A stretch of 64,000 nucleotides of DNA from the NCBI RefSeq assembly GCF_988243305.1, contig NZ_OZ547136.1, one strand, 5' to 3'. Positions 12,001 through 15,000 of this stretch are shown here, piece by piece; position 1 is the first letter of the stretch; each line of letters begins with the position of its first letter. The position numbers are program-made.

Positions 12001-15000
12001 CTTCCGGCGTACCCAAAATCCATGTGACGTAATACATCATCGCCCCGCCGCGTACGCACACCGCCAGAATATTGAAAATGGTCAGTAAACCGACAATCCG
12101 CCACTGATCGTTTTGCCAGATATCACGTAAATCTTCCCGCATAGACGTCGTTGTAGGTGGTGCTTCAACGCGTTCTTTAGTGGTAAAGAAACAAAATGCC
12201 AGCATCATGAATGCCACCACGGAAAGGACCGCGATACCGCCCTGGAAACCGAGTGGTTTATTATCACCACCAATTAAATTAACCAGCGGCATCATCAGCA
12301 CAGTAGAGAGCATGCCTCCCGCAGTCGCCAGCACAAAACGCCAGGATTGCAGCGAGATACGCTGAGTCGGGTCATTGGTGATTACACCACCCAATGCGCA
12401 GTAAGGGATATTAACGATGGTATAAAGTAAGGTAAGTAGGGTGTAAGTAATTGCTGCATAAATCATTTTTCCGTTCATACTGAGATCTGGCGTGCTATAG
12501 GCCAGTACACAGACGATCCCAAATGGCAGTGCGCCAAACAGTACCCACGGACGAAATTTACCCCAGCGAGAGCGCGTTCGATCGGCCAACAACCCCATGC
12601 AAGGATCGGAAATCGCATCCAGTGCACGAGCGACCAAAAACATGGTTCCGACAAATCCGGCAGGAATGCCAAAAATATCGGTATAAAAGAACATCATATA
12701 TAACATTACGTTATCGAAAATAATGTGGCTGGCGGCGTCTCCCATGCCATAACCAATTTTCTCTTTAACGGACAACACTTCACTCTTCATCTGCTTTTCC
12801 TTGATGCTATAGGGGTGCTGAGACCGATAACGCATTTTGTAAACCATCCCTGCGAGAGCGAATATTCCGATATCTGGTTATTAATTTATGATTCTTGTTT
12901 TATGTGATCGTGGTAGCGTTAATTCCGCTCATATATCATTGTAAAATATGGGTTTTATATGAACTATAATGTTTTCGTGATAATACGCTGCGTGTATTAG
13001 GCGGAAAAAACTGATCTGGGGGATGTAGAAACTCAAGGAAGTAGCTATAATGCGCCCCGCCTCCATGTAGCAATCGAGGCGCGGAAGATCGTCGTCTCCG
13101 GTGAGGCGGCTGGACTTCAAATCCAGTTGGGGCCGCCAGCGGTCCCGGGCAGGTTCGACTCCTGTGATCTTCCGCCAATTTGCCTCTTCATACGTTCTCC
13201 AACCCCTCGTAATACTGTCAATCCAGATATTTTCTACTGCTCAATATTCAATCGGCTTCAGAAATACCTGGTCAAAGGTTTTGTGATGGACGATGAGCGA
13301 CTGAAGAATCCGCCAGTCGGTTCTTCTGTCCTCGAACGCATCCGCGATATGCGCGCCAGCATGTGCCGTGTTTATTTGCAGGTGATTTACCCCCTGCTGG
13401 CTCTCAGCCAACTGTATCGCCATTAAGGTGAAGATGTTGTTTCACACGCCCCAGAACACCTTTTTTATACGACGATTCTATTCCTTTAACCGCTGGCAAA
13501 AAAAACTGACCTATAAACTTCACCAATAATCAGACTGCCATCAAGATTAATTTGTTCATTTAACATATCAAATCAACTTGTTTTATTTTTACTATCAAAA
13601 ATAGCTCATTGCCTTACTATAATTAATATATAAATTCGGTGATTAATTCTTAACATGCTTTTGCTAATAATCTCAATTGCTGGCCCTATAATATTGCGCT
13701 AGCATTGTTTTCTGGTTGTATCAGCGATACTCAAAAATTCTTAATACAATACTCATTCGACTGGTACTTATTTGTAACTCAGTTATATTTTGTCGCCCGG
13801 TGATTCAGAAGAATGCAAAAAACGGCTACCACTCCATCAAAAATACTTGATCTCACTGCCGCGGCATTTTTACTTGTCGCCTTTCTGACGGGTATTGCGG
13901 GCGCTCTTCAGACTCCTACCCTAAGTATATTCCTCGCAGATGAACTGAAAGCTCGTCCTATAATGGTAGGTTTTTTCTTCACCGGTAGCGCTATTATGGG
14001 AATTCTGGTCAGTCAATTTCTGGCAAGGCACTCCGATAAACAAGGCGACCGTAAATTACTGATTCTGCTATGTTGCTTATTTGGAGTGCTGGCCTGCACG
14101 CTTTTTGCGTGGAATCGCAACTACTTCATTCTGCTCTCAACGGGCGTACTTCTGAGTAGTTTTGCTTCCACCGCAAACCCGCAAATGTTCGCCCTCGCCC
14201 GTGAACACGCCGACAGAACAGGCCGTGAGACGGTAATGTTCAGTACATTTTTACGTGCTCAGATCTCGCTTGCCTGGGTTATCGGGCCACCGCTCGCTTA
14301 TGAACTGGCAATGGGATTTAGTTTTAAAGTGATGTATCTCACCGCAGCCATCGCATTTGTTGTTTGCGGGCTGATAGTCTGGTTGTTTTTGCCATCAATA
14401 CAAAGAAATATTCCTGTCGTTACCCAACCCGTAGAAATTTTACCCTCCACCCATAGGAAGCGGGATACGCGGCTACTTTTTGTGGTCTGTTCAATGATGT
14501 GGGCGGCGAATAATCTCTACATGATAAATATGCCGCTATTTATTATTGATGAACTGCATCTAACCGATAAACTGGCTGGAGAAATGATTGGTATTGCTGC
14601 CGGTCTGGAAATTCCGATGATGTTAATCGCAGGCTATTACATGAAACGTATTGGCAAGCGGCTATTAATGCTCATTGCTATCGTGAGTGGAATGTGTTTT
14701 TACGCCAGCGTACTCATGGCGACGACTCCGGCAGTTGAGCTGGAATTGCAAATTCTAAATGCCATCTTCCTTGGTATTCTCTGTGGTATCGGCATGCTTT
14801 ATTTTCAGGACCTGATGCCTGAAAAAATAGGCTCTGCGACAACGTTATATGCAAATACTTCACGCGTCGGCTGGATTATCGCCGGCTCTGTTGACGGAAT
14901 TATGGTTGAAATCTGGAGCTACCACGCGTTGTTCTGGCTGGCGATAGGGATGTTGGGTATTGCGATGATTTGCCTGCTGTTTATTAAAGATATTTAGCTC

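What the first reader, a model, noticed from the sequence alone, without database searches (positions are those of the whole stretch)
13178..13812. AT-rich 0.6-kb spacer immediately 3' of selC
The 3' end of selC is a classical integration site for pathogenicity islands. Here no island is inserted, but the roughly 630-bp spacer before setC is strongly AT-rich and contains an ORF fragment (13127..13426) that starts inside the tRNA gene. It may be a scar of past integration and excision.
Basis: inference. Interest (0 to 1): 0.25.

Follow-up and report, generated by a model that had tools for sequence, protein, structure and literature searches.

The report
Dead rhuM gene fragment beside selC
The 635-bp gap between the selenocysteine tRNA gene and setC is the ordinary E. 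coli K-12-type arrangement: a decayed fragment of a mobile-element gene (rhuM, the K-12 pseudogene yicT) followed by an AT-rich, H-NS-bound stretch upstream of setC, so it is a real but old and already annotated scar.

Summary
The coordinates are right: selC 13083-13177, setC from 13813, a 635-bp spacer, and no island at the att site. Only the right-hand 343 bp is strongly AT-rich (31.5% GC). The left 292 bp is 46.9% GC.

The spacer is colinear with K-12 MG1655 and has no att-like repeat. Its left part holds an internal fragment of a RhuM-family gene (13255-13384, Pfam PF13310, E 1e-10). This is the K-12 pseudogene yicT, which PGAP annotates as "rhuM, incomplete".

In other E. coli an intact 345-aa rhuM occupies this position. 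It is the last gene before attR of selC-integrated elements (B2 strains, strain G3/10). In G3/10 the fragment lies just outside that attR, so it comes from an older occupant. Thirteen of 73 Enterobacterales species loci also have rhuM just 3' of selC.

The fragment was left by deletions, not by integrase excision. About two thirds of E. coli genomes share it.

The AT-rich part matches a published K-12 "promoter island" reported to bind H-NS.

Already known; low interest.

The parts
13083..13177 (+). selC, tRNA-Sec (anticodon UCA)
   Evidence: ARAGORN. Rfam RF01852, 83.8 bits. Identical to K-12 selC.
13148..13189 (.). attB region used by selC-specific integrases: the last 21-30 nt of selC plus about 10-12 nt downstream
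   Evidence: In island-bearing E. coli the right junction repeats the query from selC position 66, 72 or 75 onward. Left junctions stay similar to the window up to 10-12 nt past selC. attR alignments of E189, G3/10 and B2. A 21-bp repeat is reported in EAEC 042 (PMC7058095).
13190..13254 (+). 'Leader': homolog of the sequence that lies between selC and the rhuM start codon in other Escherichia. Possibly a decayed attL (P') arm.
   Evidence: 77% identity, E 2.7e-9, to E. whittamii L060 at +4..+82. Alignment with L060 and L046, where it runs into GGAAGCGACATG, the rhuM start. A P'-arm HMM gives only weak hits: E 0.005 for K-12 and 0.03 for the window in a spacer-limited search, 0.81 window-wide. 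No RNA structure signal (z -0.23).
13255..13384 (+). rhuM relic core: codons about 120-143 and 152-171 of a 345-codon gene, with a 24-nt internal deletion between 13328 and 13329. Orthologous to the K-12 pseudogene yicT.
   Evidence: Pfam PF13310, 41.6-43.5 bits (cutoff 33.7), profile positions 50-108 of 252. tblastn against intact B2 RhuM: residues 121-171, 37/51 identical, 8-residue gap. Nucleotide identity 68/74 and 44/54. PGAP pseudo-CDS 'rhuM, incomplete' at the same bases in the strain identical over the 818-base query, GMF054. K-12 yicT b4653 maps to 13286-13416.
13385..13426 (+). Probable degenerate tail of the relic, up to the stop TAA at 13424-13426
   Evidence: The Pfam alignment extends to ORF residue 97. 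Nucleotide similarity to rhuM here is weak. One further colinear 16-nt match at 13421-13436 was reached by 7 of 500 shuffles.
13127..13426 (+). Not a gene.
   Evidence: Listed. Starts inside selC. Only the C-terminal part has homology. The frame is broken in K-12 and PGAP flags an internal stop in E189 and G3/10.
13427..13467 (.). Unassigned short segment between the relic and the AT-rich part
   Evidence: No significant similarity to rhuM, to attR arms or to the alternative B2 segment.
13468..13799 (.). AT-rich segment (about 31.5% GC) upstream of setC. Ortholog of the K-12 'promoter island' selC/setC, reported to be bound by H-NS.
   Evidence: GC profile. 2.6% divergence from K-12. The K-12 island 3834632_331 maps here after a +1977 coordinate shift. 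RpoS and RpoH holoenzyme SELEX peaks in the K-12 spacer map to about 13693 and 13791. The simple sigma-70 scan shows no excess over composition-matched shuffles.
13813..14997 (+). setC, an MFS sugar efflux transporter. Part of the strain-variable filling between selC and yicL.
   Evidence: ORF. Pfam MFS_1, E 4e-41. 98.9% identical to K-12 setC. Absent from B2 E. coli, Escherichia sp. E1V33 and all other species loci examined. Reduced to a 3' stump in O157 and WCHEC000837.
15043..15079 (.). Right boundary of the variable selC-yicL segment
   Evidence: Homology with B2 strains resumes at 15079. Homology with Escherichia sp. E1V33 resumes at 15043. Both lie just upstream of yicL (15108).

Best explanation
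**The spacer is a composite of three unrelated parts.**

1. **Attachment site.** The first 10-12 nt after selC, together with the last 21-30 nt of the tRNA gene, form the attachment site that P4/CP4-type integrases use to insert islands at selC. In this window the site is unoccupied.

2. **Fossil of an older occupant (13190 to about 13426).**
   - It holds a short leader followed by an internal, out-of-context piece (codons about 120-171) of rhuM.
   - Where rhuM is intact, it is the last cargo gene before attR of selC-integrated elements. It belongs to a family with reported anti-phage activity (PADLOC candidate PDC-S05).
   - The element was not excised by its integrase. It was eroded in place by illegitimate deletions, which also removed its attR.
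   - The remnant is non-functional and evolves roughly 2-3 times faster than the flanking genes.
   - It is shared by about two thirds of E. coli, including K-12, where it is annotated as pseudogene yicT.

3. **AT-rich region (about 13468-13799).** This is the upstream region of setC. In K-12 it is a described 'promoter island': many promoter-like sites, RNA polymerase binding, little productive transcription, and H-NS coating. It therefore most likely keeps setC silent or tightly controlled.

**Basis.** Shown here: the anatomy, the homologies and the population distribution. Inferred: the order of the deletion events. Taken from the K-12 literature and not tested in this strain: H-NS binding and promoter behaviour.
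For: **Relic identity**
- PF13310 hit above the gathering score and alignment to intact RhuM residues 121-171.
- PGAP 'rhuM incomplete' in strain GMF054, identical to the window over the 818-base query. K-12 yicT lies at the orthologous position.

**Element origin**
- In 845 of 5426 E. coli genomes an intact rhuM follows selC.
- That gene is preceded by about 38 nt of the attL arm seen in integrase-bearing elements. It is followed 40 nt later by an attR arm plus a selC 3' repeat (HMM E 7e-24).
- The same 'rhuM, then about 40-58 nt, then attR arm' order occurs in an Erwinia MAG, Huaxiibacter and Citrobacter MGH106. It also occurs, with a 1.5-kb gap, in Morganella morganii.
- E. albertii has selC, an integrase fragment, then rhuM.
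- In E. coli G3/10 a full CP4-like island ends ...DUF4942-rhuM-attR, and the relic lies immediately to the right of that attR.
- Thirteen of 73 species loci have a RhuM homolog within 3 kb 3' of selC, always on the same strand. Twenty-six have an integrase there.

**Decay rather than excision**
- The leader is shared with E. whittamii and E1V33, where it runs into the rhuM start codon. In the window it joins codon about 120 at a GCTT microhomology.
- There is a 24-nt internal deletion.
- No attR is present.
- Divergence from K-12 is 6-8% in the leader and relic, against 1-3% in the flanking genes.

**Site still in use**
- 3605 genomes carry the spacer, and 2487 of them have an empty site. About 1118 therefore have an island inserted with the spacer intact to the right of attR.

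**AT-rich part**
- PMC3661553 Table 1 lists the selC/setC promoter island as H-NS-bound in all datasets and associated with a gene predicted to be foreign.
- SELEX peaks are reported in PMC5493296.

**RhuM function**
- PADLOC PDC-S05, E 2.8e-173.
- A Virulence_RhuM PDC-S05 representative reduced T7 and T5 plating about 1000-fold (bioRxiv 10.1101/2024.09.26.614923).
Against: - The window contains no attR or element arm, so the link between this relic and an integrated element rests on comparison with other genomes.
- The similarity of the leader to attL arms is weak: E 0.005-0.03 only when the search is limited to the spacer.
- In several genera rhuM follows selC with no integrase. A long-standing chromosomal selC-rhuM linkage cannot be fully excluded for those.
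- The relic is only 83-93% identical to the B2 allele and 77-89% to the G3/10 allele, so its exact donor is unknown.
- H-NS binding and promoter-island behaviour were measured in K-12, not in this strain. The simple promoter scan here found no excess over shuffles.
- Segment 13427-13467 remains unassigned.
Confidence: 0.8

Rival explanations
1. rhuM was an old resident chromosomal neighbour of selC, not island cargo. The relic is then an ordinary decayed core gene rather than a scar of integration.
For: In Morganella psychrotolerans, Pantoea coffeiphila, Erwinia sp. JUb26, E. whittamii and others, rhuM or its stub follows selC within 120-270 nt with no integrase between them.
Against: Where flanks are preserved, rhuM is bracketed by element arms: an attL arm upstream and an attR arm plus selC repeat downstream. 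This holds in E. coli B2, G3/10, the Erwinia MAG, Huaxiibacter, Citrobacter MGH106 and M. morganii. rhuM is present, absent or fragmentary among close relatives. The genes upstream of selC differ between the genera that carry it.
Confidence: 0.1
2. Literal first-reader version: an island integrated here and was later excised by its integrase, leaving this spacer as the footprint.
For: selC is a heavily used att site. The first 13 nt after selC carry 5 substitutions relative to K-12, close to the recombination core.
Against: Site-specific excision restores attB and leaves no gene fragments. The relic has deletion junctions typical of illegitimate recombination. No att-like repeat is present. 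The same arrangement is in K-12 and in about 3600 other genomes.
Confidence: 0.05
3. The ORF 13127-13426 encodes a functional small RhuM-like protein.
For: The frame is open for 99 codons in this allele. An identical 96-aa protein is deposited at NCBI as 'virulence RhuM family protein' (P0001).
Against: It starts inside a tRNA gene and covers only profile positions 50-108 of 252, with an 8-residue internal deletion. The frame carries a stop and a frameshift in K-12 and PGAP flags an internal stop in other strains. Divergence is elevated, as for neutral DNA.
Confidence: 0.03
4. The whole spacer is simply setC regulatory DNA, and the RhuM similarity is a chance match.
For: The right-hand part is a documented regulatory or H-NS-bound region.
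Against: The Pfam E-value is 1e-10 to 3e-11, above the curated cutoff. A 74-nt stretch is 92% identical to an intact rhuM at the same genomic position in other E. coli. NCBI's pipeline independently annotates it as rhuM.
Confidence: 0.02

Closest known systems
E. coli K-12 pseudogene yicT (b4653), annotated by PGAP elsewhere as 'rhuM: RhuM family protein, incomplete'
   Same: Same position between selC and setC, same orientation, colinear sequence with the same deletions.
   Different: This allele differs from K-12 at 6-8% of positions in the leader and relic. It lacks K-12's in-frame stop and frameshift, so a longer open frame appears by chance.
rhuM of Salmonella pathogenicity island 3, the founding member of Pfam PF13310
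   Same: Same protein family. [quoted passage not shown] That SPI-3 sits at selC is from my own knowledge (Blanc-Potard and Groisman). It is often deleted or fragmentary among serovars.
   Different: Here only about 51 codons remain. No sequence comparison with the Salmonella gene was made, because no S. enterica subsp. enterica locus was retrieved. The S. diarizonae locus had no rhuM within 4.2 kb.
Intact rhuM islet or rhuM-terminal CP4-like islands at selC in E. coli B2 strains, strain G3/10 and E. albertii
   Same: Same gene, same strand, same place directly 3' of selC. The relic core is 83-93% identical to the B2 allele.
   Different: Those copies are full length (345 aa) and still bracketed by attL and attR arms. 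The window keeps neither the arms nor the gene ends.
Promoter islands of E. coli K-12 (Panyukov and Ozoline 2013, PMC3661553)
   Same: The AT-rich segment is the ortholog (97.4% identical) of the listed island selC/setC, 331 bp, reported as H-NS-bound in all datasets.
   Different: Promoter density by PlatProm and H-NS occupancy were not measured for this allele. A plain sigma-70 consensus scan shows no excess over composition-matched shuffles.
PADLOC phage-defence candidate PDC-S05
   Same: The intact homolog at this locus in other E. coli matches PDC-S05 over its full length (E 2.8e-173). One family member showed anti-phage activity.
   Different: The window copy is a dead fragment and cannot provide this function.

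Membership tests
RhuM family (Pfam PF13310 Virulence_RhuM) | Significant match to the family profile above the curated gathering score | tested here: met
   41.6-43.5 bits against a cutoff of 33.7, E 1e-10 to 3e-11.
RhuM family (Pfam PF13310 Virulence_RhuM) | Complete domain in an intact reading frame (about 345 aa in the E. coli homologs) | tested here: not met
   Only profile positions 50-108 of 252 are matched, with an 8-residue internal deletion and both N- and C-termini missing. It is a pseudogene fragment, not a family member that can function.
tRNA-associated genomic or pathogenicity island | Lies directly 3' of a tRNA gene | tested here: met
   The spacer starts at the base after selC.
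tRNA-associated genomic or pathogenicity island | Integrase gene | tested here: not met
   No ORF or tblastn similarity to the selC-island integrase in 13000-15200 (best E 2.3).
tRNA-associated genomic or pathogenicity island | Flanking direct repeat of the tRNA 3' end (attR) | tested here: not met
   No copy found with up to 3-4 mismatches, including the 4-nt-deleted variant. An attR-arm HMM hits only selC itself.
tRNA-associated genomic or pathogenicity island | Cargo or mobility gene content and deviating base composition | tested here: inconclusive
   One cargo-gene fragment (rhuM) is present. The relic itself has ordinary GC (46.9%), and the AT-rich part is a separate segment. It is best called a remnant, not an island.
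K-12 pseudogene yicT | Positional orthology and colinear sequence | tested here: met
   98% mean column identity over selC plus the spacer in the pairwise alignment, with the same architecture. yicT maps to 13286-13416.
attB site of selC-specific P4/CP4-type integrases | Sequence identical to the repeat that bounds islands in occupied strains | tested here: met
   Right junctions start at selC positions 66, 72 or 75 and continue into this spacer. A 21-bp repeat is reported in EAEC 042.
Promoter island (PMC3661553) | Orthology to a listed island | tested here: met
   K-12 island 3834632_331 maps to 13468-13799, with 2.6% divergence. The +1977 coordinate shift between the two K-12 sequence versions is my inference from selC's position.
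Promoter island (PMC3661553) | Very high density of predicted transcription start points (PlatProm) | tested here: inconclusive
   PlatProm is not available here. The simple sigma-70 consensus scan found 2 sites against 3.1 expected in shuffles.
Promoter island (PMC3661553) | H-NS occupancy | not testable with these tools
   Reported for K-12 in all ChIP datasets compiled in PMC3661553. No data exist for this strain.

The most novel reading that the evidence does not exclude
K-12's yicT, and its ortholog here, may be the fossil of a minimal selC-specific integrative element. That element would consist of little more than a P4-type integrase and a single anti-phage gene (RhuM / PDC-S05). On this reading it has repeatedly invaded Enterobacterales and then been immobilised by loss of the integrase. 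The whole 1.9-kb filling between selC and yicL would be leftover acquired DNA rather than backbone: the relic, the H-NS-bound AT-rich segment and setC.
Probability: 0.35. Interest if true: 0.35.

Novelty: already known. Interest (0 to 1): 0.17.

Why it matters
It matters little for this window. The feature is the standard K-12-type selC-setC spacer, already annotated as pseudogene yicT / 'rhuM incomplete' and listed as a promoter island.

The useful results are corrective:
- The 'empty' selC site of K-12-like strains is not pristine. It carries the eroded end of an earlier occupant.
- The AT-richness belongs to the setC upstream region, not to the scar.
- The apparent ORF is not a gene.

As a side benefit, the comparison shows that rhuM, a candidate phage-defence gene, is a recurrent terminal cargo of selC-integrating elements across Enterobacterales. 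It is intact at this locus in about 16% of complete E. coli genomes.

Tried and rejected
- **selC 3' repeats.** Searched for direct repeats of the selC 3' end as a 26-mer, a 15-mer and the 4-nt-deleted 20-mer variant, and ran a general repeat search. Only selC itself and chance-level matches were found.
- **attR-arm HMM.** Built from four attR arms and run on the whole window. It hit only selC (E 0.014) and nothing in the spacer.
- **Apparent attR-arm resemblance.** The AT-rich region around 13556-13620 looks like an attR arm by eye. No statistical support was found, so this was rejected.
- **AT-rich part against the alternative B2 segment.** No similarity: 262 of 500 shuffles scored as well.
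- **Extra relic pieces.** 13218-13251 first appeared to match rhuM codons 57-71 (17 of 500 shuffles, no Pfam support). This was replaced by the much stronger match of 13181-13258 to the rhuM upstream leader of E. whittamii.
- **attL-arm HMM against the leader.** The best hit in the window is at the right place but weak. It is kept only as a suggestion.
- **Rfam.** At E up to 1 it found only tRNA-Sec plus one chance hit.
- **RNA fold of the leader.** No better than shuffles.
- **Promoter and terminator scan.** Not above expectation.
- **Protein database search with the relic.** Returned only short E. coli fragment ORFs and no full-length relatives.
- **NCBIfam.** No model matches RhuM.
- **Literature.** Searches for 'yicT' returned nothing relevant. 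The Blanc-Potard 1999 SPI-3 paper is not held in the library.
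Full report
**What is at the coordinates**

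The window is an E. coli chromosome segment with the gene order yicI, yicJ, selC, setC, yicL, nlpA. tRNA-Sec lies at 13083-13177 on the + strand (ARAGORN; Rfam). setC, a 394-aa MFS transporter, starts at 13813. It contains no integrase and no island. The ORF 13127-13426 exists, with a TTG start inside the tRNA gene.

Base composition is not uniform. The spacer as a whole is 38.6% GC against 49.3% for the window, and 12.6% of equal-sized windows are as low. The left 292 bp is 46.9% GC. Only 13470-13812 is strongly AT-rich, at 31.5% GC, within the lowest 1.6% of windows.

**Comparison with K-12 and other E. coli**

The spacer is colinear with K-12 MG1655. An 818-base query covering selC, the spacer and the start of setC is 96.5% identical to K-12 and 100% identical to strain GMF054. 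K-12 annotates pseudogene yicT (b4653) in this spacer. NCBI's pipeline annotates 'rhuM: RhuM family protein, incomplete, missing N- and C-terminus' at the bases equivalent to 13256-13384.

The 5424 complete E. coli genomes with a match fall into these groups:

| State of the selC site | Genomes |
|---|---|
| Carry this spacer | 3605 |
| Of those, empty site like the window | 2487 |
| Of those, island inserted with the spacer intact right of attR (by subtraction) | about 1118 |
| Intact 345-aa rhuM directly after selC instead of this spacer | 845 |
| Spacer and most of setC lost to island-associated deletions (e.g. the LEE in O157:H7) | the rest |

In the occupied sites, attR repeats the last 21-30 nt of selC.

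**The left part is a gene fossil**

Residues 42-97 of the ORF match Pfam PF13310 (Virulence_RhuM) above the curated threshold, covering profile positions 50-108 of 252. Against the intact RhuM of B2 strains the match covers residues 121-171 with an 8-residue gap. At the nucleotide level, 13255-13328 is 68/74 identical and 13329-13382 is 44/54 identical, with a 24-nt deletion between them.

The 80 nt between selC and the fragment are homologous to the sequence that, in E. whittamii and Escherichia sp. E1V33, runs from selC into the rhuM ribosome-binding site and start codon (77% identity, E 2.7e-9). In the window this leader joins codon about 120 at a GCTT microhomology. The fragment therefore arose by deletions:
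- a 5' deletion of about 400 bp;
- an internal 24-bp deletion;
- a 3' truncation.

The frame is broken by a stop codon and a frameshift in K-12, and PGAP flags an internal stop in other strains. The leader and relic differ from K-12 at 6-8% of sites, against 1-3% in yicJ, setC and yicL and 2.6% in the AT-rich part. It behaves as neutral DNA, and the 99-codon ORF is an accident of this allele.

**Where the gene came from**

In B2 E. coli, including the type strain, the order is:
- selC;
- about 38 nt of the same attL arm seen in front of the integrase in E. albertii, O157 and others;
- an intact rhuM;
- 40 nt later, a conserved attR arm and an imperfect copy of the selC 3' end (TGCGACTCCTGTGATCGCCA).

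The evidence is (HMM E 7e-24).

Other genomes show the same pattern:
- The order 'rhuM, then about 40-58 nt, then attR arm' occurs in an Erwinia MAG, Huaxiibacter and Citrobacter MGH106 (there as another relic). It also occurs, with extra DNA, in Morganella morganii.
- E. albertii has selC, attL arm, integrase fragment, then rhuM.
- E. coli G3/10 has a complete CP4-like island ending ...YeeU-CbtA-DUF4942-rhuM-attR. The K-12-type leader, relic and setC follow immediately to the right of that attR.

rhuM is therefore terminal cargo of selC-integrating elements, and the relic is the remnant of an earlier occupant.

A scan of one genome per species with a selC 38-mer returned 94 loci, of which 73 have at least 1.3 kb of downstream sequence. 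Thirteen of those have a RhuM homolog within 3 kb 3' of selC, all on the selC strand, and 26 have an integrase there.

The window itself retains no attR. No repeat of the selC end was found and the attR-arm HMM gave no hit in the spacer. The leader's resemblance to attL arms is only suggestive.

The intact protein matches PADLOC candidate PDC-S05 (E 2.8e-173). A PDC-S05 member with a Virulence_RhuM domain was reported to reduce T7 and T5 plating about 1000-fold (bioRxiv 10.1101/2024.09.26.614923).

**The right part is something else**

Segment 13468-13799 maps onto the K-12 'promoter island' selC/setC (331 bp) of Panyukov and Ozoline (PMC3661553). Their Table 1 marks it as H-NS-bound in all datasets and associated with a gene predicted to be foreign. 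Genomic SELEX found RpoS and RpoH holoenzyme binding peaks in the same K-12 spacer (PMC5493296).

My own checks added little:
- A plain sigma-70 scan showed no excess over composition-matched shuffles.
- Rfam found nothing besides the tRNA.
- There is no similarity to the segment that replaces it in B2 strains.

setC and this AT-rich region belong to a variable filling between selC and yicL, and Escherichia shows at least three versions of it:
- the filling in this window;
- the B2 version: rhuM, attR and a 165-aa hypothetical protein;
- the E1V33 / E. whittamii version: leader, a 15-codon rhuM stub and a minus-strand CxxCxxCC protein.

Homology with the window resumes at 15043-15079, just before yicL. 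The literature treats setC, yicL and nlpA as backbone (PMC7058095).

**Verdict**

- **Observation: partly confirmed.** Only the right half is AT-rich, and the ORF is not a gene.
- **Interpretation: partly supported.** There is a true vestige of an element once integrated at selC. It is shared with K-12, has no att repeats, and was produced by deletional decay rather than excision. The AT-richness is unrelated to it.
- **Novelty and interest.** Both components are already annotated or published (yicT / 'rhuM incomplete'; the promoter island), so novelty is 'already known' and interest is low.
- **Most novel reading not excluded.** yicT may be the fossil of a minimal integrase-plus-RhuM defence element, and the whole selC-yicL filling may be old acquired DNA.

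Noticed in passing
window about 17650-33500: By colinearity with strain GMF054, the window carries the 'selC-B' / eip island beyond nlpA and yicS. It comprises a SycD-like chaperone, YopB/SseC-like and IpaD/SipD-like translocators, eilA and a very large inverse autotransporter (iatC/eaeX) with internal repeats. So although the selC att site is empty, an accessory type-III-related island lies about 4.5 kb downstream.
   Followed up: partly
window about 1840-8790: A BglG-type antiterminator plus a fructose-type PTS, two aldolases, a ROK kinase and a sugar isomerase lie on the far side of yicI from selC, next to yicH. This is inferred from the GMF054 annotation and colinearity. The same cluster is present in the B2 locus and in WCHEC000837. 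Whether it is strain-variable was not checked.
   Followed up: no
window 13179-13190: Five of the first 13 bases after selC differ from K-12 (AA>TT, C>T, TG>AT). This is far denser than elsewhere in the spacer. These positions adjoin the att core, and the first four bases also vary among element and chromosomal flanks in other genomes (AAAT, ATTT, GTTT, AAGT). It could be a footprint of element traffic or plain polymorphism.
   Followed up: partly
L003 7296-7327; L019 +1965; L100 +3474: The attR copy of the selC 3' end, with the same 4-nt deletion (TGCGACTCCTGTGATCGCCA), is identical in E. coli B2 and Phytobacter massiliensis and differs by one base in Morganella morganii. It therefore looks like a feature of the element family's own att sequence rather than random decay.
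   Followed up: partly
L046 +234..+1445 (minus strand); L060: In Escherichia sp. E1V33 and E. whittamii, rhuM is cut after about 15 codons. Its place is taken by a 404-aa minus-strand protein with a weak CxxCxxCC zinc/iron-chelating domain match (E 7e-4, below the Pfam cutoff). This is a third alternative filling between selC and yicL.
   Followed up: partly
L103 4726-6138: E. coli G3/10 carries an intact rhuM and the K-12-type rhuM relic in tandem, separated only by an attR arm and the leader. The two generations of the same cargo gene are 77-89% identical over the relic.
   Followed up: yes
L005 5485-5658; L006 29810-29899: In O157:H7 (LEE) and in strain WCHEC000837, the island at selC is accompanied by loss of the spacer and most of setC. 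Only a 174-bp or 90-bp 3' stump remains next to yicL, and in the latter an IS1 sits at the junction.
   Followed up: no
L005 +4996..+5087 from selC: In O157:H7 an attR-type arm lies about 5 kb from selC, between the integrase-proximal cryptic element and the LEE proper (HMM E 2.9e-20). This is consistent with tandem accretion of elements at this site.
   Followed up: no
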